Part shown: one piece after another, positions 2,913 to 45,885 of the stretch
How positions within the stretch are numbered: the stretch's first letter is position 1
Layout: each line of letters starts with the position of its first letter
Program-made: the position numbers and the translations under genes
The notes under the pieces: generated by a model
What the model was told of the DNA's origin: nothing
The model's input: only the letters and a program-made list of their open reading frames with translations
Database searches by the model: none
Origin: a phage
Length of the DNA: 45,885 bases
Assembly: GCA_021146325.1 (NCBI GenBank)
Contig: GCA_021146325.1_4321.1
Reading direction: 5' to 3' (one strand)

Positions 2913-2958
2913 CAATAGCACGAATAGCTAAAACTAATACGCAAAACCCTGTATAGTT
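2913..2958 (+). promoter_or_regulatory. promoter cassette copy (IR TAGCACGAATAGCTA, 22 bp, ATAGTT) upstream of the methyltransferase gene
   Basis: IR core 2916..2930. Confidence 0.5.
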
Positions 2959-2989
2959 GGTCACACAAAAAACGAGAGAGGATTTCAAA

Positions 2990-3679
2990 ATGGTTATTTG
3001 GTCTTTATTTGATGGTTCAGGGCTGGCTGTGAAAGATTGGGCTGAGGCTTGTCACGAGTGCTACTGTTTCAACTTTGATGAGTCTGACCACGGTAGTTAC
3101 GGGGATTTAAATGCAAAATTTGAACATGAGAACATCACCTACGTTAATGCCTGGATAGATGGCAACTTCGACTTTGATGTGAAGCCTGATATCATTTTAG
3201 CGTTCCCGCCGTGTACGGATTTAGCCGTGAGCGGGTCAAGGCACTTTGAGCGAAAGCGACTGGTTAACCATAACTTCCAGATTGAAGCTGCGGAAACATG
3301 TAAAGTTGCTTTTAACTTGGCTAATAAGTACGAAGTCACATACATGATTGAGAATCCAATCAGCGTACTGTCATCACTCTGGAGAAAGCCTAATAAGACT
3401 TTCCACCCATATGAATACGGAGGCTATTTGCCGGAAGATGATTTACACCCGTTTTTTAGCGACCTAATAAAGCCAAAAGACGCATATCCCAAGAAGACAT
3501 GCATTTGGTATGGCAATGGGTTTAAATGGCCAGAGGCGATTCCTGTGGACGTTAACGATGGATTCTCTGACCAATACAAGAAGCTTGGTGGGAAGAGTAA
3601 GAAGACAAAGGTAATTCGCAGTCTAACTCCTCGCGGTTTTGCAAAAGCAGTCTTCATAGCAAATAGCACGAATAGATAA
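2990..3679 (+). CDS. DNA (cytosine-5) methyltransferase, short orphan type
   Basis: motif I LFDGSG, motif IV FPPCTDLAVSG, motif VI-like ENP, C-terminal LTPRGFAKA; ATG at 2990 has RBS GAGAGG (the ORF track began at TTG 2957). Confidence 0.7.
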   Translation: MVIWSLFDGSGLAVKDWAEACHECYCFNFDESDHGSYGDLNAKFEHENITYVNAWIDGNFDFDVKPDIILAFPPCTDLAVSGSRHFERKRLVNHNFQIEAAETCKVAFNLANKYEVTYMIENPISVLSSLWRKPNKTFHPYEYGGYLPEDDLHPFFSDLIKPKDAYPKKTCIWYGNGFKWPEAIPVDVNDGFSDQYKKLGGKSKKTKVIRSLTPRGFAKAVFIANSTNR

Positions 3680-3717: not shown

Positions 3718-3977
<260 letters not shown>

Positions 3978-3978
<1 letters not shown>

Positions 3979-14579: not shown

Positions 14580-14828
14580 TTACTTTGATTCGTTTTTTAC
14601 AATGTTGTGAGCAACTTCGGTGCACACCTCGCGACCATAATGCAGAATCTGATTTGTCTTATCGCCAGCTACTTTTTCACAATGAGAATATGCACTATTA
14701 AATTCATGTTCATACTTTATTGCATCAGAGTTAGCGGTTGCGCCACCAGTTGGGTTGACAATCTGAATTGCCAGGTAGAAAGCACCAAGAGCAGCAGCAA
14801 GTTTGATGATATTTTTAACGTTGTTCAT
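14580..14828 (-). CDS. small secreted or membrane protein, moron-like insert in the tail module
   Basis: 82-aa ORF with hydrophobic N-terminus; own promoter cassette and upstream terminator. Confidence 0.5.
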   Translation of the reverse strand: MNNVKNIIKLAAALGAFYLAIQIVNPTGGATANSDAIKYEHEFNSAYSHCEKVAGDKTNQILHYGREVCTEVAHNIVKNESK

Positions 14829-14861: not shown

Positions 14862-14907
14862 ACTATACAGCAATCCGCGACTTAGCCTTTAACAAAAAGT
14901 GCTATCA
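14862..14907 (-). promoter_or_regulatory. promoter cassette copy (IR TAGCACTTTTTGTTA, 22 bp, TATAGT, CATCGAAAAGAAA)
   Basis: IR core 14890..14904. Confidence 0.55.
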
Positions 14908-20334: not shown

Positions 20335-21063
20335 TTATGACTCCCAATCCGGCACAGCCCAACAACGACAGCCGTATTCCTGACCAGGGAAGAGATCGTT
20401 ACCGCTCAACCTGAAGCTTAGGCCCTCTTTCTTGAAATGGGTCATTCGCTCCCTTTCATCAAGCATGCCGTGCCAAATGTAATGGGTAACACCAGCATCC
20501 TCTAGCCTCCTGCGCATGAACGTAGAGTTAATACTGGACGTGATGCCTGAGGCTATATTAGCAGTTCTCTTGCGGTAAATCTTGTACCTTTCGTTAATCT
20601 TAAGGTAGTCACCACTCTGTATGATTGATGCAGACTGAATAAAGTCGTCCTTGATATTGTTGAGTAACTTTTCAACGGACTTATTTGATGTGTAAAGCCA
20701 CTGGTTTAAATCCGGCTGATACCAATCTTCATCTCCATTTATACCGTTAAGTCTCAAGTCCATAACTGACTGAACCGAGCCGCCACCGGTCTTGATTGCC
20801 AGCACAAGAAACTGCGATGAATTATACCTGTATATTGACGCTCCAATTGCCGGAAGTGTAGCTACAACAGAAGCTATAAGCGCTGCTATGATTGCGTCGA
20901 GATAATTATCTTCCTGCTCTAGCTCCTCGGCAGTGTCAATCTTAAGCCGCGTAGCTGATTCTTTCATTGCAGATATTAGCTCAGTTACCGCAACGCTAAG
21001 GTTGCGGTTTACCTGATTCTCAATTGTCTGCGGGTACTTCCAGCGGGTCTTCACTGGTTTCAT
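20335..21063 (-). CDS. minor head morphogenesis protein
   Basis: 242-aa ORF directly after the portal gene. Confidence 0.6.
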   Translation of the reverse strand: MKPVKTRWKYPQTIENQVNRNLSVAVTELISAMKESATRLKIDTAEELEQEDNYLDAIIAALIASVVATLPAIGASIYRYNSSQFLVLAIKTGGGSVQSVMDLRLNGINGDEDWYQPDLNQWLYTSNKSVEKLLNNIKDDFIQSASIIQSGDYLKINERYKIYRKRTANIASGITSSINSTFMRRRLEDAGVTHYIWHGMLDERERMTHFKKEGLSFRLSGNDLFPGQEYGCRCWAVPDWES

Positions 21064-22324
21064 TGATTGTTACCTCTGTCTCAATTGAACCTTCACCAAT
21101 CTTAACCTCAGGGGCTAATGCGCGCAAGGTATCTCGTGCTTCGTCTGCATCCATCACGCCGTTAGTGATAAGAGCAGTAATTGAATCAACGTTATTCTTC
21201 AGTATTTCAGCGCGGTCTTTCTTCGATTCCTGAGCTAGAGGGTTAAACTCAACTGACCATTCTTGCTCGGTTGTGATGAACGGGATTAAGAACCCAAGAA
21301 CTGGAAGTAGCTCTTCGTTACGCTTGCGGTCAATCAACTTGTGGAATGTCTCTAGCGCTGTGTTTTGGCTAGATGATAACCCGCCAACGTTACGACCTTT
21401 GAGAATGATTTCATGGATACCGCTCAGAGCAACAATTCTGTCGAACTTCTTATCGAGGAATCCATCAATCCCACCAATATCCGAGTTAAGAACGCTGTAC
21501 TCTTCAGCTTCAGCGTCGATACCAATCGCGCGACCAACGCCAGAGTTATCATCAACCTGGGCAAGCCTCAACCTGGCCGCACCAAAACCTTCCGCGTCGT
21601 CACACAGTTCAGCAAGGCCTTTAGCCTTCCACACCGCCTGCTGCTTGCGGCGCAATAACTGAGTTGCCAGTTTCTCACACGTCTGATAATCCTTGATTGA
21701 TTCAAGCAGGTCAGGAACCAGAACGCTAGCACCCCACCCGTCATTACCGCGACGCAATGAACTAGGAATCTTCTCGCCATCCATAATGTGAACTCGCGAG
21801 TAGTGCACATCATAAAACATGGCGCCACCTTCTGGCGTGATGCGGTACGTTAATGGCTTACCGAATCGCACATTGCGAGGGTTTTCCTCCTTAGTCTGAA
21901 CTCTTACCTGGCTACGCTCATAAACGCGAAGTGATTCAAGTTCAGCGCCTTCACGTACCGGGCTAGTTAGCGCACGATTGTCCTTAACGATAGCCACAAT
22001 TGCAGAGCCGCCAAATAACCTCGCCCATGACCATGCGTCAGAGATTGACTCGTTAACCCTCAGGTAATCCCACCTGGACCAGAATTCACCTTCGTCATCA
22101 ATACCATCGATATGGAAACCTGCGGCGATTGCTGTCTCCGGTATGGTGTCGACGATGCGGCGTACAATTGAGTTTGATGCGTACAGTGAATCAGCGAAAG
22201 GAGGTGTAAGATACGTGTTGCCAAAGTGCCCGTAAATCTCGCTACCATCACTGGGGCCACCAAGAAATTGCGTGGCGTATGAATCTGCTTTTACCATTTT
22301 ATTTGCTCCAATAAAAAGCCCCAT
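21020..22324 (-). CDS. portal protein
   Basis: 434-aa ORF after TerL; probable start is ATG 22297 (MVKADSY, RBS GGAG) because 22317..22332 forms a terminator hairpin. Confidence 0.8.
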   Translation of the reverse strand: MGLFIGANKMVKADSYATQFLGGPSDGSEIYGHFGNTYLTPPFADSLYASNSIVRRIVDTIPETAIAAGFHIDGIDDEGEFWSRWDYLRVNESISDAWSWARLFGGSAIVAIVKDNRALTSPVREGAELESLRVYERSQVRVQTKEENPRNVRFGKPLTYRITPEGGAMFYDVHYSRVHIMDGEKIPSSLRRGNDGWGASVLVPDLLESIKDYQTCEKLATQLLRRKQQAVWKAKGLAELCDDAEGFGAARLRLAQVDDNSGVGRAIGIDAEAEEYSVLNSDIGGIDGFLDKKFDRIVALSGIHEIILKGRNVGGLSSSQNTALETFHKLIDRKRNEELLPVLGFLIPFITTEQEWSVEFNPLAQESKKDRAEILKNNVDSITALITNGVMDADEARDTLRALAPEVKIGEGSIETEVTINETSEDPLEVPADN

Positions 22325-22333
22325 TTAGGGGCT
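22311..22333 (-). terminator. rho-independent terminator closing the small gene 22356..22709
   Basis: hairpin AGCCCC-ATTTA-GGGGCT then TTTTAT on minus. Confidence 0.55.
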
Positions 22334-22355
22334 TAGTTTAGCATAGCTTTTATGG

Positions 22356-22709
22356 TTACTCGAATTTTACTTCGAACTCGATTGATGATGTTTTCACTCC
22401 ATTAAGTGTTAACTGGCGAACCTCCCTTCTGACTTCATAAAATGCCTCTTTAGTTACTATGTCTTTGTTGATGAAGTATTTAATCCCAGCCTTTTCAACT
22501 TTAAAATTATCACCTTTAACGACAAAATCGGTAGGCTCTATAACTTCGAAATCATAAACACTAAGATTAATTACGCCCAAATAGCCTTTATCATCCTTAA
22601 CTTTGACGTATTCATTATTACTTCCAGGCGTTCTTGATAAGTCATAAATCTTACCAACGGTAAAATCAAAATAACCAGCTTTTTTATACCCTTTAAATAC
22701 TGCTTTCAT
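22356..22709 (-). CDS. hypothetical protein, moron-like unit between TerL and portal
   Basis: 117-aa ORF flanked by its own promoter cassette and terminator. Confidence 0.55.
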   Translation of the reverse strand: MKAVFKGYKKAGYFDFTVGKIYDLSRTPGSNNEYVKVKDDKGYLGVINLSVYDFEVIEPTDFVVKGDNFKVEKAGIKYFINKDIVTKEAFYEVRREVRQLTLNGVKTSSIEFEVKFE

Positions 22710-22738
22710 TTTTTACTCCTCTCGTTTGCGTGAAGTAA

Positions 22739-22784
22739 CTATAAGCCATCCTTGGCGGCGCGTCTTTAGCAAAACGTGCTATTT
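22739..22784 (-). promoter_or_regulatory. promoter cassette copy (IR TAGCACGTTTTGCTA, 22 bp, TTATAG)
   Basis: IR core 22767..22781; its TAG is the TerL stop codon. Confidence 0.55.
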
Positions 22785-24398
22785 GATGCCAGCGAGGCGC
22801 ATCATCCTCGATTTAGGGTCTTCTGCAATGTTCAGTACCAGGTTGACAGCCATTGTCAAACAGTCTATCTGGTCATCGTGAACATGTGAATCATCTGCCG
22901 TGAATGCCGCAATCTCCGTTAGCAAGCCATTAAGCCAAGTAGCAGACTCCGGAAGGATTACGTTACCAGCTTTAATCTGCGGCAATGCACTCATTACGCG
23001 AGTCAGCTTATCGTTATCCGGAACGTACGGCTCGATAGGCGTTCGCATAACCCTTCCGGCTGATTGAATCAGGCCAATACCAGAGGCTTTCTTCTCGATG
23101 ATGATTTTACGAAGGATGCCATCTATCTGATTGGATGCCCTAGCCATCTTCTCGAAATCCAATAACTCAGCCTCGAGCTCAGGAGCTTCAAATTTACCGC
23201 GCCGCTGGTCAAGAAGATAAATCTTCCCATCCTTATAACCCCATAGCTGCATGACGCTAAAGTCGCTGTAACTTTTGGTTGTCATCGCAGTATCAAGGAC
23301 CATAAACCTGTAATCGTACTTAGCTGGCGGTCGCAGAGTGTCGCTAATGCGTTGAAGCCAGTCTACGTTAATCAGGTTGCCGCCAAGTGCTACTGGTTCT
23401 TGCTGATACTGGCTAAGGAATGTATAGCTATCAGAATCCCACATTGCAACTAGGTCGTGAACAGATTCCTTGCCAGGGAAATAGCTATAGTACCTAACAC
23501 CATCACGCTCAATATATTCGCTTGATAGAACGTCATCAATGAATTGCTGCTTAATCCAGTCAGGAAGCGTGTCGACGTAATCCTCAGTTACGAGCGCCGG
23601 TATCTTAATCAAGTCGAAGCTAATACCCATACCGCCATTCATCATGAACCACGTACTATCGTTCACATGAAGGCGCTGTTGGATAGAGATAATCGGCGTC
23701 GCCTTTCCTTTTACGGAGCTCGCCCTACGAGAGCGTATTGTATTCTTTAGCATCACGTGATTGTTAGCGCGAAAAACAGCAGAAAGCATGTCGGCTGGTT
23801 TGTCAAAATCATCTAACAGTACCGCACCACTATACGAATCGGTTATATATCCACCCCTCGCGCCTGTAATTTGGCCGCCAGTGGCTTTAGAGATTGACTC
23901 AAACCTGACCTTGCCATAGTCATCCAGGACCTGTAGCTCATCATCCTTACACGTACCAAACTTACATGGGAACAACTCCTGGAACTCAACAGACTTAATT
24001 AAGTCGCGCACACGCTTGGAGTTACGCTTAACCAGTGAGTCAGCATACGATATATTCAGGTTCCTTACCTTTCTCAACTTAACCATTGAGTAGGCTGGGA
24101 AGTGAATTGAGGCAATCTCTGTTTTTCCGCTACCAGGTGCTATGTTGATGATGGTATCTTTACGCTCACCCGCAATAATCTCATCAATGATTCTGCAAAG
24201 GTATTTATGATGCCAGTTTGGGATGTACCGCTCTCCCTGAGTTACCTGGAACCACACTCGCAAGAATCCCTCGAAGCTATGAGTGGATATCGCCTTAACC
24301 GCCATCTTTTCTGCTGGCGTCATTTCCTCCCAAACTAAATTAGCCATAATTTCACCAATCCAACCATCACGCCAATTAAGAATCCAGTTGTGAAGCAT
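22779..24398 (-). CDS. terminase large subunit
   Basis: 539-aa ORF with ATPase-like N-terminal region, at the head of the morphogenesis block. Confidence 0.85.
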   Translation of the reverse strand: MLHNWILNWRDGWIGEIMANLVWEEMTPAEKMAVKAISTHSFEGFLRVWFQVTQGERYIPNWHHKYLCRIIDEIIAGERKDTIINIAPGSGKTEIASIHFPAYSMVKLRKVRNLNISYADSLVKRNSKRVRDLIKSVEFQELFPCKFGTCKDDELQVLDDYGKVRFESISKATGGQITGARGGYITDSYSGAVLLDDFDKPADMLSAVFRANNHVMLKNTIRSRRASSVKGKATPIISIQQRLHVNDSTWFMMNGGMGISFDLIKIPALVTEDYVDTLPDWIKQQFIDDVLSSEYIERDGVRYYSYFPGKESVHDLVAMWDSDSYTFLSQYQQEPVALGGNLINVDWLQRISDTLRPPAKYDYRFMVLDTAMTTKSYSDFSVMQLWGYKDGKIYLLDQRRGKFEAPELEAELLDFEKMARASNQIDGILRKIIIEKKASGIGLIQSAGRVMRTPIEPYVPDNDKLTRVMSALPQIKAGNVILPESATWLNGLLTEIAAFTADDSHVHDDQIDCLTMAVNLVLNIAEDPKSRMMRLAGIK

Positions 24399-24465
24399 GT
24401 AGCTGCTATCATGTAATACGCCAATAATGCCTTAATCAATTATATCATACCAACCCGCCATGTTC

Positions 24466-24990
24466 TTACAGTTTGCTAATCACAGACTCCAGAGCTTCCT
24501 TCATCGTTTCGACGTCGTTAGCAGAAGAGTTATTGCTTATAGTGATCTCCTGCGGTTTGTCGATTCCAAGCTCCTTGGAAATCATGCCAGGGTTAACAAT
24601 GCCAGATGCTGCAAGCTGGTATTTCTGCTCGCGAATCACGGAATCAATGAATGCAATCACCTCATCATAACCAGCCGACTTCCTCCATTTCTCGATGGCG
24701 CTATGGGTGACACCGCAGTAAAGGCAGAATCCGGTTAGCGTGAAGACTCTTGGTTTGTGCACCAGGCTCTCTTTTACCACACCCTGGAAGCTGGCTGTCT
24801 CGATTGCCTTGATTGCCTGGTCCTCAGCCCATGAGAAGTATTTCACGGCGAATTCAAATAGCTGTTCGGGTGTCATGCTTCTGTTTTTGGCTAGCGTTGT
24901 AATGTCTGAGTACTTTTTATTGTACATGGCTTTAAAGTTGCCAGAGCGGACCTTTTCTTGCGCCTGACTGGTGAAGTTTTCGTCTTTCAT
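24466..24990 (-). CDS. terminase small subunit
   Basis: 174-aa ORF immediately upstream of TerL; strong RBS AAAGGAGG. Confidence 0.7.
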   Translation of the reverse strand: MKDENFTSQAQEKVRSGNFKAMYNKKYSDITTLAKNRSMTPEQLFEFAVKYFSWAEDQAIKAIETASFQGVVKESLVHKPRVFTLTGFCLYCGVTHSAIEKWRKSAGYDEVIAFIDSVIREQKYQLAASGIVNPGMISKELGIDKPQEITISNNSSANDVETMKEALESVISKL

Positions 24991-33963: not shown

Positions 33964-34137
33964 CTATTCTGCGATAATAAATTCCACCAAAGAGCCATCA
34001 ATTGGCGCCAGGATGTGAGTCATATCGTCTCCGTAAATCTTGTAGTAACCATCTCCAAGCGACTCTCCGCTATAAGGTTGGCTCTCGGTAAAAGGCAGTG
34101 TCTTGGAGTTGTTTTTAACGCAGTATAATTTAGTCAT
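33964..34137 (-). CDS. small hypothetical protein
   Basis: 57-aa ORF downstream of a promoter cassette; not in the ORF track. Confidence 0.4.
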   Translation of the reverse strand: MTKLYCVKNNSKTLPFTESQPYSGESLGDGYYKIYGDDMTHILAPIDGSLVEFIIAE

Positions 34138-43460: not shown

Positions 43461-45885
43461 ATGGCAATTTATGACTTAGGAACAGCATCACTAGCCTCAA
43501 ATGGCGAGGTTACTGGCGTAGGTACTACATGGAAAGCACCTCTTACACTGATTCGTGTAGGTGCTACTATCATTTTCAAAACCAGCCCTCTGAAAATTTA
43601 CACCATCTCTGAAATCATCAGCGATACTCAGGTTAATGTTTATAATCCAAGTTCTGAAACTGTTCCCGCTGGTACTGGTTACGCAATTCTTGCTCATGAT
43701 GGAATTACTGTTCAGGGGTTGGCGCAGGATGTTGCGGAAACATTGCGTTACTACCAGTCAAAAGAGACTTCTATTGAAAGTCTACTGCAATTTATTGGTC
43801 AAGATACTTTTGATTGGCCTCGTTTTGAACAACTGGCAACTCAGTCAACTACCGGAGCTGCCGAGGCGCTTGCTAGTCAGATCTCTGCCGCTGAGAGTGC
43901 CTCTACAGCGGTAGGTGCTAGCAATAACGCACAAAATTCATATAACAGGACGGTTGCAGCAATAAATGCGGCTGGAAATACAGCGGCTGTTGCTTACTTT
44001 GCTAATCACGGAATAGGTAGCACGACAACGCCATTACTTACCTCTTTAGATTGGCAAACAATGCAATTTTATTCCGGAGGTCGTTATCAGTGCACACTTA
44101 GGAATATGTTAAACACCCCAAAAGAAATTAGTTCAATGTTTCCGGTTTCAACAACTCCTATTTGTATTGATGTTATTGCAACTAGGGGTGTTAATTCGAC
44201 TAGTGTATTAAGGTTATCTCCGTCTACTGGGTCAAACTCAAATTTTAGGATTGCAGATGTCACAATTTCTGGTGCGACTGGATCTAGGGTTTTTTATGTA
44301 AGGGAAGCACTAAGCTTGCCTGGCGGTGATGCTGCAACTGGTGGAGCAAGCGCGTCAAGGGTTAGGGGGTTGCTTGATGTTTACTCAAAATCCGAGACGT
44401 TTCAAAAATCATTGAATCTTTCAGACATTGCAGATAAGTCCGTGGCAAGAACCAACCTTGATGTTTACTCAAAGGGTGAGGTGTTATCAATTTTAAATAC
44501 AGATTCAAAAAGCACATCAAGCTATAGCGACTCAATATCTTCAGCAATAGAAGCCGCTGGCGATGGCGGGTCGGTAGTTATAAGCCCGGGAACTTATGAG
44601 AGTAATAACTACTCCTTTGCTGGCAGGAACATATCAGGCTCTGGATATAATACCGTAATAAGTGTTAAACCTTTTGAAGCCGGACTCACATCAACGCTAT
44701 CGGTTCCGCACTGGAGGCAAAAGCATTTATCGGATTTGCAGTTTACAGGTACTGCAATACAAGGTAATAACGGCTTTCAATTCCCGGATGACCCTTATGC
44801 TGGAAGGGTTGTATTGGATAGGCTTTACTTCAATGACCTGGATGTTGGTATAAGGAAAAATGCTGGCAACATTGGAAATACCTACAGAAACGTAAGTGTT
44901 AGAAATGCGAATTACGGGTATAGAGCAAAAGCTCATGACGAAATGCATATAGGAGCGGACACTTTATACGGATACCACTCAGATACAATCTCTCAATATT
45001 CAGTAATGCTAGATGCGACAAGCACAAGTAGCGCAACGAACCATGGCGCTGGAGGAATTGGTGGGTGGTGGATTAGGGATTCAATAATGGAGGACTCTGC
45101 TGGCGGCGGTATAAGGTTAAAGAATAAACCTGGAGATTGCCCAACATCACCTTGCGGATTGTCTAACGTATGGTTTGAAGCGATAGCAACTGGGGGAGCA
45201 ATTAACGTAGGTGAGGGAGCTGAACTCCCAAGGGTTTTGAAGCTCATCGATACGTCCGTTTTCTTTGCTGAGCATTCTTATATTAATAACATTGAGTTAT
45301 CAAATTCAAACCTTGTAACTTATGGGTGCAGGTTTGATAACGCTGATGGGCACCAAAGTTTCTCTCTTGATTCGAACAGTATTATTTTTGCTAAGGATGC
45401 ATACCTGAATGGATCTTCAACATCAAACGTTATAGTTGAGTCGCTGGTATCACAGACAGCCAAGATAACGGGTACATCTGACTTATCTGTTAGAGGATAT
45501 GTTACTAAAGGTCGAGTTTTTAATCCCGATTCCGGAACTGTTTTAGTCAGGAGGCCTTTTGGTACTGGTGGGAACAACTTTAATGGAACAGCGTCGTCAA
45601 GTGAAGGTTCTGATACAAGGGGTATACACTCGCTATCATCTGGATACTACGAATTGCCTGGTGCGGCTCAGTACGAATTGATAAATGGTGCCTTTAATAT
45701 AACCGCTGGCAAATGGTATGTTTGGGGTATCTCTGCAAACAGAATTCAAGGTGGTGCTGATGGTGTTATCCGTATTTTTGGTAGTGCATCTTTAGGGAAG
45801 GTATTCACTGAGGGCGGTAAGTGGGTTCACACATTTGGAGTTGCTCAGGCTTCAGTCTCTGGCACTGCAAACCTGCATATCAACC
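43461..45885 (+). CDS. tail fiber or tailspike-like protein, 3' end cut by the window
   Basis: open frame of over 800 codons from ATG 43461 with no stop before the window end; Gly/Ser/Thr/Asn-rich repeats typical of fibre proteins; absent from the ORF track. Confidence 0.65.
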   Translation, partial: MAIYDLGTASLASNGEVTGVGTTWKAPLTLIRVGATIIFKTSPLKIYTISEIISDTQVNVYNPSSETVPAGTGYAILAHDGITVQGLAQDVAETLRYYQSKETSIESLLQFIGQDTFDWPRFEQLATQSTTGAAEALASQISAAESASTAVGASNNAQNSYNRTVAAINAAGNTAAVAYFANHGIGSTTTPLLTSLDWQTMQFYSGGRYQCTLRNMLNTPKEISSMFPVSTTPICIDVIATRGVNSTSVLRLSPSTGSNSNFRIADVTISGATGSRVFYVREALSLPGGDAATGGASASRVRGLLDVYSKSETFQKSLNLSDIADKSVARTNLDVYSKGEVLSILNTDSKSTSSYSDSISSAIEAAGDGGSVVISPGTYESNNYSFAGRNISGSGYNTVISVKPFEAGLTSTLSVPHWRQKHLSDLQFTGTAIQGNNGFQFPDDPYAGRVVLDRLYFNDLDVGIRKNAGNIGNTYRNVSVRNANYGYRAKAHDEMHIGADTLYGYHSDTISQYSVMLDATSTSSATNHGAGGIGGWWIRDSIMEDSAGGGIRLKNKPGDCPTSPCGLSNVWFEAIATGGAINVGEGAELPRVLKLIDTSVFFAEHSYINNIELSNSNLVTYGCRFDNADGHQSFSLDSNSIIFAKDAYLNGSSTSNVIVESLVSQTAKITGTSDLSVRGYVTKGRVFNPDSGTVLVRRPFGTGGNNFNGTASSSEGSDTRGIHSLSSGYYELPGAAQYELINGAFNITAGKWYVWGISANRIQGGADGVIRIFGSASLGKVFTEGGKWVHTFGVAQASVSGTANLHIN

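What the first reader, a model, noticed from the sequence alone, without database searches (positions are those of the whole stretch)
22311..22784. Self-contained promoter-gene-terminator unit inserted between TerL and portal
Seen in sequence: gene 22356..22709 (117 aa, no recognisable motif) has its own promoter cassette (22739..22784, overlapping the TerL stop) and its own terminator (22311..22333, next to the portal start). Established knowledge: such autonomous units inside late operons are typical morons, often encoding host-interaction or exclusion functions. Inference: this gene is expressed independently of the packaging operon.
Basis: partly seen in the sequence, partly recalled or inferred. 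Interest (0 to 1): 0.55.

Follow-up and report, generated by a model that had tools for sequence, protein, structure and literature searches.

The report
Accessory gene module between terminase and portal
A small, non-essential gene of unknown function sits between the DNA-packaging and portal genes of a T1-like coliphage, led by one of the phage's many repeated promoter-like cassettes; it is a fairly ordinary mobile "extra" gene, not a special device.

Summary
There is a real 117-aa gene (22709..22356, minus strand), a promoter-like cassette overlapping the TerL stop, and a hairpin plus T-run just before the portal gene. Three points change the interpretation.

1. The cassette is not private to this gene. 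It is one of 17 copies in the window of the Drexlerviridae repeat aaATAGCACnnnTTGnTAAA. All 14 aligned cassettes carry a -10-like hexamer at a fixed offset, and 15 copies are followed by an SD and start codon. The -35 is weak, and promoter activity is untested.

2. The terminator belongs to the backbone. T1, TR2, DTL, JeanPiccard and 12397I lack the gene but keep a terminator at the same place.

3. The gene is an accessory. It occurs in about 40 of 839 related phage records, has 33% GC against 44% for the window, and has a hypervariable coding body between conserved ends. Homologues sit in replication regions of rV5-like myoviruses, there followed by the same cassette.

Homology breakpoints between this phage and phage ES cluster in these cassettes, as with the PeSL cassettes of T4-type phages.

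The protein has an SH3-like domain and a small beta-beta-alpha-beta domain, and no informative homologue. I found no experimental basis for its "virion structural protein" label.

Verdict: a moron-like, cassette-borne accessory gene. This is a new member of a known kind, of moderate to low interest.

The parts
22779..24398 (-). Large terminase subunit (TerL) gene. Its stop codon TAG (22781..22779) lies inside the repeat element.
   Evidence: ORF list. 96% nt identity to the annotated terL of phage ES.
22765..22784 (-). Drexlerviridae direct repeat aaATAGCACGTTTTGCTAAA. It contains the 5-bp inverted repeat TAGCA-N5-TGCTA and marks the left boundary of the insertion.
   Evidence: 17 copies in the window against 0.47 expected. 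Matches the TLS 21-nt repeat consensus (PMC11447400). Empty sites share only AAATAGC.
22738..22766 (-). Core promoter-like part of the cassette: a weak -35-like AAGACG (22766..22761), a 17-nt spacer holding the short hairpin GCCAAGGATGGC (22756..22745), and a -10-like TATAGT (22743..22738). The inferred transcription start is near 22731.
   Evidence: Alignment of 14 cassettes shows the A and T of TAnnnT at least 90% conserved at a fixed offset. Not called by the generic sigma-70 scan. The start site is inferred only.
22710..22731 (-). Inferred 5' leader of about 22 nt, with the Shine-Dalgarno GAGGAG at 22721..22716.
   Evidence: Sequence. The leader is conserved among relatives and among paralogous cassettes.
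22356..22709 (-). ORF117: an accessory gene for a 117-aa two-domain protein. It has an N-terminal SH3-like barrel (aa 1-58), a variable linker (aa 60-73), and a C-terminal beta-beta-alpha-beta domain (aa 75-117). It belongs to PHROG 14592.
   Evidence: GC is 33.1%.
22336..22351 (-). Right junction of the insertion, AAAAGCTATGCTAAAC. It resembles a degenerate copy of the repeat and of the empty-site sequence AATAGCCGTGATAAAC.
Evidence: Comparison of occupied junctions, empty junctions and myovirus loci, where a full repeat follows the gene after TAACCATAAAA.
22308..22334 (-). Intrinsic terminator or attenuator of the TerL/portal junction: stem 22334..22316, then a T-run. This is a backbone feature, not part of the insert.
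   Evidence: Scan. RNA fold, -16.5 kcal/mol for the 65-nt stretch 22296-22360 that contains the hairpin. The same hairpin is present in gene-less relatives, and a different hairpin, annotated as a terminator, occupies the same place in T1.
21020..22297 (-). Portal gene (DUF1073 / Phage_portal_3 family). The likely start is the ATG at 22297, preceded by GGAG (22309..22306) inside the terminator tail.
   Evidence: Alignment with annotated starts of relatives. ORF list. Portal-family tblastn.

Best explanation
The window comes from a T1-like siphovirus (Drexlerviridae, Braunvirinae). ORF117 is a dispensable accessory gene carried as the cargo of one of the family's repeated intergenic cassettes. 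Each cassette has four parts: the repeat ATAGCACnnnTTGnTAAA, a short hairpin, a -10-like hexamer, and a leader with an SD sequence.

The module sits between the TerL stop codon and a terminator that was already present in front of the portal gene.

Origin (inferred). The module was gained, and in some lineages exchanged or lost, by recombination at the repeat. The left junction is exactly the AAATAGC shared by the TerL end and the repeat. The right junction looks like a decayed repeat. This parallels the way PeSL promoter/stem-loop cassettes shuffle ORFans in T4-type phages.

Expression (inferred). Transcription starts about 7 nt after TATAGT, near 22731, from a promoter with a good -10 and a poor -35. 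That promoter depends on, or is boosted by, the upstream repeat, which could act as an activator site or an UP-like element. Part of the transcripts stop at the hairpin at 22334..22316, giving a short monocistronic mRNA. The rest, together with read-through from TerS/TerL, continue into the portal gene.

Product. The protein is soluble, with an SH3-like domain and a beta-beta-alpha-beta domain. My best guess is that it acts inside the infected cell as a non-structural, probably early, binding or modulating factor involved in host or defence interplay. I do not think it is a virion component. Its target is unknown.
For: Shown by tool results:
- Identity of the phage and gene order.
- Empty and occupied junctions share the same terminator.
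- Patchy distribution. About 40 phage records hold the gene, and 32-33 hold its conserved 3' end. This compares with 839 records of the portal family, 134 of them at 60% identity or more.
- The coding body is hypervariable while the flanks stay at backbone level. Mean pairwise identity is 76% for TerL, 75% for the leader, 48% for the middle of the gene and 78% for its last 45 nt.
- Low GC.
- The repeat family has 17 copies. Fifteen are co-oriented with an SD and ORF 54-85 nt downstream, and the -10 position is conserved.
- Cassette-led genes are mostly early or accessory ones: ERF, PNKP phosphatase, DUF3987, Cor-like lipoprotein and DUF7244.
- Nine of 40 homology-block ends between the window and phage ES fall inside cassettes, against 1.3 expected. 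These include a clean repeat-gene-repeat indel at window 2933-3661 and a repeat-bounded extra module in ES.
- Homologues occur in myovirus replication regions. One lies next to DNA ligase in the Vequintavirinae phage W70, and others lie 2 kb downstream of DNA polymerase in contigs assigned to rV5-like phages by size and gene content (L014 is 140.6 kb; L020 is a 35.8-kb contig).
- In those contigs the homologue is driven by a consensus TTGACA-17-TATAAT promoter. It is followed by a full Drexlerviridae-type cassette that is about 80% identical in DNA to the ORF117 leader.
- The same cassette is also found in 140-180 kb viral contigs.

Literature:
- The repeat is reported for TLS, T1, Rtp and Rogue1, with unknown function (PMC11447400).
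- PeSL properties: PMC2839356.
Against: - No transcription data exist for any of these cassettes. The TTGCTA/-10 spacing of 21-23 nt is non-canonical and the -35 is weak (2-4 of 6 matches), so promoter activity may need a phage factor or may be absent.
- The breakpoint enrichment uses a uniform null. Breakpoints favour intergenic DNA anyway, so the true significance is lower.
- The right-junction 'decayed repeat' reading and the recombination route are inferences from short similarities.
- The gene sits in the head-morphogenesis arm, on the same strand as the late genes, and is labelled 'virion structural protein' in PHROGs and RefSeq.
- The published virion proteomics are shallow (3 to 7 proteins) and cannot exclude a minor component.
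Confidence: 0.6

Rival explanations
1. ORF117 is a minor virion, decoration or head-assembly protein. It would be made late together with terminase and portal, and the variable body would reflect surface exposure.
For: - The gene lies between TerL and portal on the late strand.
- PHROG 14592 is labelled 'virion structural protein, head and packaging'.
- RefSeq and AN_ECEAS carry labels such as 'putative minor outer capsid protein'.
- Fast evolution is typical of exposed virion proteins.
Against: - The gene is absent from T1 and from most relatives with the same head genes.
- Homologues in large myoviruses lie in replication or early clusters, in two of three cases behind a consensus sigma-70 promoter.
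- It is not among the virion proteins identified in Rogue1 or AHP24-type phages, although those surveys were shallow.
- It is split by a frameshift in ACG-M12 and phiEB49.
- I found no experimental source for the label.
Confidence: 0.15
2. The repeat cassette is not a promoter. It would instead be an operator or 'stoperator', an RNA-processing signal, or purely a recombination signal. In that case ORF117 is transcribed only as part of the TerS-TerL-portal late transcript, and the unit is not autonomous.
For: - The generic sigma-70 scan does not call the element.
- The -35 is weak and the TTGCTA spacing is non-canonical.
- The authors of the TLS paper list stoperator or enhancer roles as open possibilities.
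- Gene-less relatives express the portal gene without any cassette at this position.
Against: - A -10-like hexamer scoring at least 4 of 6 occurs at a fixed offset in 14 of 14 cassettes. The two key -10 bases are at least 90% conserved, and the distance to the SD and ATG is constant.
- In other phages the same -10 and leader are paired with canonical -35 boxes.
- Functionally proven PeSL cassettes have the same layout.
Confidence: 0.2
3. ORF117 is a classical moron: a gene of bacterial or prophage origin that benefits a lysogen or excludes other phages.
For: - Presence/absence polymorphism, deviant GC, and a flanking promoter-like element and terminator.
- The known exclusion gene cor (Cor-like lipoprotein, PF24052) is led by the same kind of cassette in this window.
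Against: - T1-like phages are described as virulent.
- Every homologue whose context was inspected lies in phage or phage-like contigs.
- The protein has no signal peptide or membrane segment of the kind that known exclusion proteins such as Cor have.
- There is no hit in PADLOC.
- The terminator is not part of the insert.
Confidence: 0.07
4. The gene is cargo or a partner of the homing HNH endonucleases that frequent the terminase region.
For: In AugustePiccard and RobRod40 an HNH gene lies directly upstream of the homologue. HNH genes also sit between TerS and TerL in ES, Rtp and phiEB49.
Against: - Most occurrences, including this window, have no adjacent HNH gene.
- Where an HNH gene is present, it lies outside the cassette-gene unit, and the cassette follows the HNH stop.
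- The myovirus homologues have no HNH neighbour.
Confidence: 0.03

Closest known systems
PeSL (promoter-early stem-loop) mobile regulatory cassettes of T4-type phages (Arbiol et al. 2010, PMC2839356; Comeau et al. 2014, PMC4122927)
   Same: - It is a repeated intergenic cassette that begins at the upstream gene's stop codon and ends at the SD and ATG of the next gene.
- It contains a promoter-like element and often a short stem-loop.
- It sits mostly in front of small genes of unknown function, with a few copies inside virion modules.
- Indel and replacement breakpoints between close relatives fall in the cassettes.
   Different: - It occurs in a different phage family.
- The conserved upstream block is a specific 18-21-nt repeat rather than a generic AT-rich tract plus a consensus -35.
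- The -35 is weak.
- The hairpins are short (4-6 bp) and unlikely to be strong terminators.
- Promoter, terminator and mini-circle activities are untested here.
21-nt direct repeat of T1-like phages (aaATAGCACnnnTTGnTAAAA; TLS re-annotation, PMC11447400) and the 'transcripton' view of the T1 late region
   Same: The element at 22784..22765 matches the consensus exactly. It is co-oriented with transcription and starts 73 nt before the start codon, against about 76 nt reported for TLS.
   Different: The paper leaves the function open. This work adds four things: the fixed -10-like hexamer, the association with homology breakpoints, the role as the boundary of this insertion, and the occurrence of the cassette in rV5-like and RB43-sized myovirus contigs.
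Morons of lambdoid and other temperate phages (Juhala/Hendrix concept; from general knowledge)
   Same: An extra gene present in some relatives and absent in others at the same junction of a late operon. It has deviant base composition and is flanked by a promoter-like element and a terminator.
   Different: - The phage family is described as virulent.
- The promoter-like element is the phage's own repeated cassette.
- The terminator predates the insertion.
- No lysogen-benefit context exists.
PHROG 14592 ('virion structural protein'); examples are Rtp rtp22, JK06 JK_35, phiEB49 gp57 and ACG-M12 gp63
   Same: Clear sequence membership (E = 2.7e-28, full length). Same position between TerL and portal.
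   Different: Identity is only 31-49% to members other than ES and AN_ECEAS. I found no experimental basis for the family's functional label, and myovirus members lie in replication regions.
Small stand-alone SH3-like phage proteins (DUF7244; Gp54 of phage Bas11, PDB 9axb)
   Different: No significant sequence relationship was found (hhalign probability below 3%). ORF117 has an extra C-terminal domain. The similarity is at fold level only.

Membership tests
Moron (autonomous extra transcription unit in a late operon) | Present in some and absent in other closely related genomes at the same junction | tested here: met
   Empty junctions occur in T1, TR2, DTL, JeanPiccard and 12397I. Occupied junctions occur in ES, IMM-001, Rtp, ACG-M12, phiEB49, Jk06, AugustePiccard and RobRod40.
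Moron (autonomous extra transcription unit in a late operon) | Base composition differs from the surrounding genome | tested here: met
   GC is 33.1% against 43.7% for the window (sd 3.5%), in the lowest 0.5% of equal-sized windows. TerL is 46% and portal 49%.
Moron (autonomous extra transcription unit in a late operon) | Carries its own promoter | tested here: inconclusive
   A promoter-like cassette with a conserved -10 came in with the gene. It is the phage's generic cassette, is not called by the sigma-70 scan, and has no activity data.
Moron (autonomous extra transcription unit in a late operon) | Carries its own terminator as part of the inserted unit | tested here: not met
   The hairpin and T-run are present at the TerL/portal junction of relatives that lack the gene.
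Moron (autonomous extra transcription unit in a late operon) | Expressed from a repressed prophage, or benefits the lysogen | not testable with these tools
   T1-like phages are described as virulent in the literature. No expression data are available.
PeSL-type mobile regulatory cassette module | Repeated intergenic motif spanning from the upstream stop codon to the downstream SD/ATG | tested here: met
   There are 17 copies. Fifteen have an SD and ORF 54-85 nt after the repeat. Stop codons of upstream genes lie in or just before the repeat.
PeSL-type mobile regulatory cassette module | Contains a strong sigma-70-like promoter (-35 and -10) | tested here: inconclusive
   The -10 scores 4-6 of 6 in 14 of 14 cassettes. 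The -35 at canonical spacing scores only 2-4 of 6.
PeSL-type mobile regulatory cassette module | Contains a stable stem-loop acting as a terminator or attenuator | tested here: inconclusive
   Short hairpins of variable sequence (for example GCCAaGGATGGC and GCCTCAaaGGATTGAGGC) lie between the repeat and the -10 in many copies. They were not folded or tested, and they lack T-runs.
PeSL-type mobile regulatory cassette module | Indel and replacement breakpoints between close relatives coincide with cassettes | tested here: met
   Nine of 40 block ends between the window and ES fall in cassettes, against 1.3 expected under a uniform null. Repeat-gene-repeat in one genome corresponds to a single repeat in the other at window 2933-3661, and ES 44074-45234 is repeat-bounded.
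PeSL-type mobile regulatory cassette module | Forms excised mini-circles | not testable with these tools
   This needs PCR or sequencing across circle junctions. The only hint is the permuted order, gene then cassette, in myovirus loci.
Drexlerviridae 21-nt direct repeat (TLS-type) | Consensus aaATAGCACnnnTTGnTAAAA, co-oriented with transcription, about 76 nt upstream of a start codon | tested here: met
   AAATAGCACGTTTTGCTAAAG lies at 22784..22764. It starts 73 nt before the ATG and is on the same strand as the gene.
PHROG 14592 'virion structural protein' | Sequence match to the family profile | tested here: met
   E = 2.7e-28, residues 1-117 against profile positions 2-116 of 116.
PHROG 14592 'virion structural protein' | The protein is actually a component of virions | not testable with these tools
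   No proteomic report lists it. The origin of the label could not be traced. The genomic context in myoviruses argues against it.
Intrinsic (rho-independent) terminator | GC-rich hairpin followed by a T-run, conserved in position | tested here: met
   A 7-bp stem with 5 GC pairs, a 5-nt loop and a TTTTTATT tail. The same hairpin is found in relatives, and a different hairpin, annotated as a terminator, occupies the same place in T1. Termination efficiency was not tested.
SH3-like fold proteins | Five-stranded small barrel, with structural similarity above noise | tested here: inconclusive

The most novel reading that the evidence does not exclude
The long-noticed but unexplained T1-family repeat (ATAGCACnnnTTGnTAAA plus a -10 and a leader) may be a PeSL-like mobile promoter cassette. 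In this reading it drives gain, loss and allele swapping of small genes across Drexlerviridae. It would also ferry modules between unrelated coliphage families, namely T1-like siphoviruses, rV5-like myoviruses and RB43-like myoviruses. ORF117 would be one such travelling cargo, encoding an early-acting host- or defence-modulating protein.
Probability: 0.4. Interest if true: 0.55.

Novelty: new member of a known kind. Interest (0 to 1): 0.35.

Why it matters
The result is of modest importance. It shows that the TerL/portal junction of T1-like phages is a slot where accessory genes are dropped in front of a pre-existing terminator, and that the 'virion structural protein' label spread through databases for this family is probably guilt by association.

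The more useful by-product concerns the repeat, a 20-year-old unexplained feature of T1-like genomes. The data give it a testable role as a promoter cassette and a recombination boundary. They also suggest that such cassettes help small genes move between coliphage families. Those small genes are the pool from which anti-defence and host-takeover functions are usually drawn.

Tried and rejected
Searches on the protein that gave nothing:
- Pfam, NCBIfam and PADLOC scans.
- PDB sequence searches with the single sequence and with the profile, which gave only noise at E of 0.019 or higher.
- Foldseek against BFVD found only family members and weak small-barrel hits.
- The afdb50 library was not available.
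- hhalign of the family profile against three small cassette-led ORFs of the window, including the DUF7244 protein, was not significant. I therefore dropped the idea that ORF117's N-domain is a demonstrable paralogue of them.
- Two long proteins hit by the profile (P0036, a galectin repeat protein, and P0039) look spurious or uninformative.

Searches on the DNA:
- An Rfam scan of 22200-22900 gave one sub-threshold hit on the terminator hairpin only.
- The generic sigma-70 scan does not find the claimed promoter. I considered TTGCTA as a -35 and rejected it because the spacer is 21-23 nt.

Literature:
- Searches for proteomic or transcriptomic evidence on this gene or on the repeat found none.
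- The T1 (Roberts 2004) and Rtp (Wietzorrek 2006) genome papers are not held.

Ideas rejected:
- HNH-cargo idea. HNH genes are adjacent in only a few relatives and lie outside the unit.
- Classical bacterial-origin moron. No homologue was seen outside phage or phage-like contexts, although genome contigs was not scanned.
Full report
WHAT THE WINDOW IS

The region 21000-24500 is 96% identical in DNA to Escherichia phages ES and AN_ECEAS. It is 76-88% identical to other T1-like siphoviruses of the Drexlerviridae, subfamily Braunvirinae. On the minus strand the gene order is as follows:
- TerS: 24990..24466
- TerL: 24398..22779
- a 117-codon ORF: 22709..22356
- portal: ending at 21020

CHECK OF THE OBSERVATION

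The ORF is real.
- It has a GAGGAG Shine-Dalgarno sequence 6 nt before the ATG.
- It has homologues with 27 invariant positions across 13 sequences of 39-98% identity.
- It gives a confident AlphaFold model with mean pLDDT 82.

The terminator is real.
- The hairpin AAGCCCC-TAAAT-GGGGCTT (22334..22316), followed by TTTTTATT, is the best terminator-like site in the 9-kb scan.
- The scan as a whole is close to chance (11 sites found, 7.2 expected). The case therefore rests on conservation, described below.

The 'promoter cassette' needs qualification.
- The generic sigma-70 scan does not call 22784..22738. TTGCTA (22772..22767) and TATAGT (22743..22738) are 23 nt apart.
- The element is nevertheless highly non-random. 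ATAGCACnnnTTGnTAAA occurs 17 times in the window against 0.47 expected.

One correction concerns the portal start. The portal ORF can be extended to an ATG at 22324 inside the hairpin. Relatives start at ATGGTAAAAGC, which is 22297 here, preceded by GGAG.

THE CASSETTE

The repeat is the 21-nt direct repeat aaATAGCACnnnTTGnTAAAA. It was reported for phage TLS, with 21 copies co-oriented with transcription and about 76 nt upstream of start codons. It is also seen in T1, Rtp and Rogue1. Its function is unknown; stoperator, enhancer site and UP-like element have all been suggested (PMC11447400).

In this window:
- Fifteen of the 17 copies are followed by an SD and an ORF on the same strand, 54-85 nt (mostly 55-58 nt) after the repeat.
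- Aligning 14 of them gives a cassette of about 75 nt. It consists of the repeat, about 13-15 nt that often hold a short hairpin of variable sequence, a -10-like hexamer, and then a leader resembling TACTCCATCGAAACGAAAGAGAG followed by the ATG.
- The -10 scores 4-6 of 6 in all 14 cassettes. Its A at position 2 and T at position 6 are at least 90% conserved.
- The best -35 at canonical spacing is weak (AAGACn or TAAACA, 2-4 of 6). The -10 lies 27-41 nt before the ATG.
- The repeat contains a 5-bp inverted repeat, TAGCA-N5-TGCTA. If transcription starts about 7 nt after the -10, the centre of this inverted repeat would lie near -43. That position is an inference.

The genes led by cassettes are mostly early or accessory ones:
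- ERF recombinase (PF04404)
- PNKP-type phosphatase (PF25109)
- DUF3987
- a Cor-like lipoprotein (PF24052)
- DUF7244
- several ORFs of 53-82 aa

Only two cassettes lie in the structural arm: this one, and one at 14905 in front of an 82-aa ORF with a hydrophobic N-terminal segment.

Its layout is that of a promoter, but its activity has never been shown.

THE TERMINATOR IS A BACKBONE FEATURE

- T1 has no gene between TerL and portal, but its record annotates a rho-independent terminator there. That terminator uses a different hairpin sequence.
- TR2, DTL, JeanPiccard and 12397I also lack the gene. They carry the same hairpin as the window directly after the TerL stop.

The junction sequences compare as follows:
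- Empty junction: ...AAATAGCCGTGATAAACTAGCCCCTAcATGGGGCTTTTTTATTGGAG...ATG
- Occupied junction...AAATAGC|AC...repeat...gene...TAACCAcAAAAGCTA|TGATAAACTAGCCCC...

The insert of about 470 nt thus lies between the TerL stop and a terminator that was already there. Its left end is exactly the AAATAGC shared by the TerL end and the repeat.

DISTRIBUTION AND EVOLUTION OF THE GENE

- The protein matches PHROG 14592 (E = 2.7e-28).
- tblastn finds it in about 40 phage records. Apart from two Vequintavirinae records (W70 and A73), these are T1-like phages, and in the records whose context was inspected the gene lies between TerL and portal (Rtp rtp22, JK06 JK_35, phiEB49 gp57, ACG-M12 gp63 and others).
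- The portal family is present in 839 records, 134 of them at 60% identity or more.
- Only 32-33 records carry the gene's conserved 3' end. About ten more match only the terminator part, directly after TerL.
- In 1.84 billion representative proteins the family has just 31 clusters.

Among seven phages the mean pairwise DNA identity by segment is:
- last 300 nt of TerL: 76%
- leader: 75%
- first 45 nt of the gene: 52%
- middle of the gene: 48%
- last 45 nt of the gene: 78%

As an example, IMM-001 is 88% identical to the window in the flanks, but its protein is only 34% identical. The gene's GC is 33.1% against 43.7% for the window, which places it in the lowest 0.5% of equal-sized windows. In ACG-M12 and phiEB49 the two domains are in different frames, separated at a run of seven A residues.

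All this marks a dispensable, fast-changing or repeatedly swapped accessory gene.

HOMOLOGUES ELSEWHERE

- A homologue in the Vequintavirinae phage W70 lies in a cluster of small genes directly upstream of DNA ligase (hhalign probability 98%, E = 6e-14; PHROG 14592 E = 4e-9).
- In the 140.6-kb IMG/VR contig L014, and in the Logan contigs L020 and L021 (35.8 kb and 15.8 kb), the gene lies about 2 kb downstream of a DNA polymerase gene. I call these contigs rV5-like from their size or gene content; that assignment was not tested directly.
- In L014 and L020 the gene is preceded by a consensus promoter, TTGACA-17-TATAAT, wrapped in a stem-loop.
- It is followed immediately by a complete Drexlerviridae-type cassette. 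That cassette now leads an 85-aa gene whose relatives are rV5-type phage genes.
- At the DNA level the myovirus segment is about 77-80% identical to the C-terminal half of some Drexlerviridae alleles. It is about 80-82% identical to the ORF117 leader of ES, phiEB49 and IMM-001.
- The strict form of the repeat occurs in 75 IMG/VR stretches. Most are 42-53 kb contigs, but three are 140-144 kb and four are 176-180 kb. Two of the large contigs were inspected, one in each size class, and both carry the full cassette.

The gene and the cassette have therefore moved between phage families. Where the promoter is unambiguous, it is of the host sigma-70 type, which is typical of early genes.

CASSETTES AS RECOMBINATION BOUNDARIES

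A local blastn of the window against the whole ES genome gives 21 homology blocks.
- Nine of the 40 internal block ends fall inside cassettes, which cover 3.3% of the window. The expectation is 1.3, and the binomial P is 5e-6 under a uniform null. That null is generous, because breakpoints prefer intergenic DNA anyway.
- Window 2933-3661 is a repeat-gene-repeat unit holding a 229-aa ORF. ES has a single repeat at the corresponding place.
- ES 44074-45234 is an extra stretch bounded by repeats.
- The HNH gene that ES has between TerS and TerL begins at a repeat.

This is the behaviour described for the PeSL cassettes of T4-type phages. PeSLs start at the upstream stop codon and contain a sigma-70-like promoter and a stem-loop. 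They end at the SD and ATG, sit mostly before ORFans, occasionally lie inside virion modules, and mediate modular shuffling and mini-circles (PMC2839356 and PMC4122927).

The right junction of the ORF117 insert is AAAAGCTATGCTAAAC (22351..22336). It resembles both the empty-site sequence and a decayed repeat. In the myovirus loci a full repeat follows the same post-stop TAACCATAAAA. This fits an origin as a repeat-gene-repeat unit, or as a circle that integrated at AAATAGC. That reading is an inference from short similarities.

THE PROTEIN

The model has three parts:
- an N-terminal five-stranded barrel (aa 1-58)
- a low-confidence linker (aa 60-73), which is where family members carry indels
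- a C-terminal beta-beta-alpha-beta domain (aa 75-117; pLDDT 90 when modelled alone)

I could not trace the 'virion structural protein' label to an experiment. The virion proteomes of Rogue1 and of AHP24-type phages list three and seven proteins respectively, and this gene is not among them. Those surveys were shallow.

MOST LIKELY MECHANISM

Shown:
- The gene is an accessory insert with a generic cassette on its 5' side and a pre-existing terminator on its 3' side.
- It is patchy, divergent and AT-rich.
- It is shared with myoviruses, in non-structural contexts.

Inferred:
- The gene was acquired, and is exchanged, by recombination at the repeats.
- It is transcribed from the cassette, starting near 22731 and probably with early or middle timing like other cassette-led genes.
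- The old terminator limits spill-over into the portal and head genes, while read-through still serves them.
- The product is a cytoplasmic binding or modulating protein, not a virion part.

I give about 0.6 to this package. Most of the doubt lies in promoter activity and in the protein's role.

Rivals, with my confidence in each:
- a minor virion or assembly protein: 0.15
- a cassette that is not a promoter, so that the gene is only part of the late transcript: 0.2 (this overlaps with the main account in other respects)
- a classical moron or exclusion gene: 0.07
- HNH-associated cargo: 0.03

COMPARISON AND NOVELTY

The unit works like a moron and, more closely, like a PeSL-borne ORFan. It fails one moron criterion, because its terminator is not its own. 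A second criterion, an active promoter of its own, remains inconclusive.

It is a member of the known T1-family repeat system and of PHROG 14592. This makes it a new member of a known kind.

Two things may be new. One is the link between the T1-family repeat and modular shuffling. The other is the presence of the repeat, together with this gene, in rV5-like and RB43-sized myovirus contigs. I could not find either described, but the literature held here is incomplete.

Interest for the finding as given is 0.35.

Noticed in passing
window, 17 sites: 1265-, 2915+, 3663+, 14888-, 22765-, 26565-, 27910-, 29152+, 29965+, 30745+, 34195-, 35282-, 37786-, 40016-, 41408+, 41421-, 43422-: A genome-wide family of the repeat ATAGCACnnnTTGnTAAA (0.47 copies expected by chance). 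Most copies extend into a cassette of about 75 nt with a short hairpin, a conserved -10-like hexamer, a CATCGAAACGA-type leader, an SD and an ATG. The repeat holds the inverted repeat TAGCA-N5-TGCTA.
   Followed up: partly
window 2933-3661 (ORF 2990..3679, 229 aa, no Pfam hit): A repeat-gene-repeat unit that is absent from the 86-96%-identical phage ES, which keeps a single repeat at that place. Conversely, ES 44074-45234 is an extra stretch bounded by repeats.
   Followed up: partly
L009 (ACG-M12) 2501-2832 and L007 (phiEB49) 2501-2832: In these alleles the N- and C-terminal domains are in different reading frames, joined at a run of seven A residues (INKK|KQFKYYING). This could be a pseudogene, a sequencing artefact, or slippage-dependent expression of the full-length protein.
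   Followed up: no
L020 3940-4453 and L014 2940-3458 (contigs assigned to rV5-like myoviruses; L014 is 140.6 kb, L020 is 35.8 kb): The homologue is driven by a consensus TTGACA-17-TATAAT promoter embedded in a stem-loop. It is followed by a complete Drexlerviridae-type cassette that leads a native rV5-type 85-aa gene. The allele is a mosaic: the N-terminus is like the window's allele, while the C-terminal half matches Rtp-type alleles at about 80% DNA identity.
   Followed up: partly
L080 3990-4090 (180-kb contig), L057 2470-2560 and 2920-2990 (144-kb contig); strict-repeat hits also in L047, L048, L097, L075: Full T1-type cassettes occur in contigs the size of RB43/Lw1 T4-type phages and in rV5-like contigs. 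In L057 the same CATCGAAACGAAAC leader also follows an ordinary TTGACC-17-TATATT promoter.
   Followed up: partly
window 22297 vs 22324: The longest portal ORF starts at an ATG inside the terminator hairpin (22324). Relatives and the GGAG at 22309..22306 point to 22297 as the real start. JK06's annotation appears to make the same over-extension.
   Followed up: yes
window 24335-24473 vs ES 801-1335: ES, Rtp, phiEB49 and TR2 carry an HNH endonuclease gene between TerS and TerL that this window lacks. AugustePiccard and RobRod40 carry an HNH gene between TerL and the ORF117 homologue. The terminase region is a hotspot for such inserts.
   Followed up: partly
window 14580-14828 (minus strand), cassette at 14888-14905: This is the only other cassette-led gene inside the structural arm. 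It is an 82-aa ORF with a hydrophobic N-terminal segment and may be a second moron-like insert.
   Followed up: no
window 3748-3978 (+) and 33964-34137 (-): A cassette-led Cor-like phage lipoprotein (PF24052, E = 1e-36) and a cassette-led DUF7244 protein (PF23896, E = 1e-26).
   Followed up: partly
phage database records MG065688 (Campylobacter phage A110b), PP134917 (Pseudomonas phage PsgS01F) and several 128-135-kb 'Campylobacter phage' records: Records named for non-enteric hosts are close relatives of, and in one case the same length as, T1-like or rV5-like coliphage genomes. This suggests mislabelled or contaminant phages.
   Followed up: no
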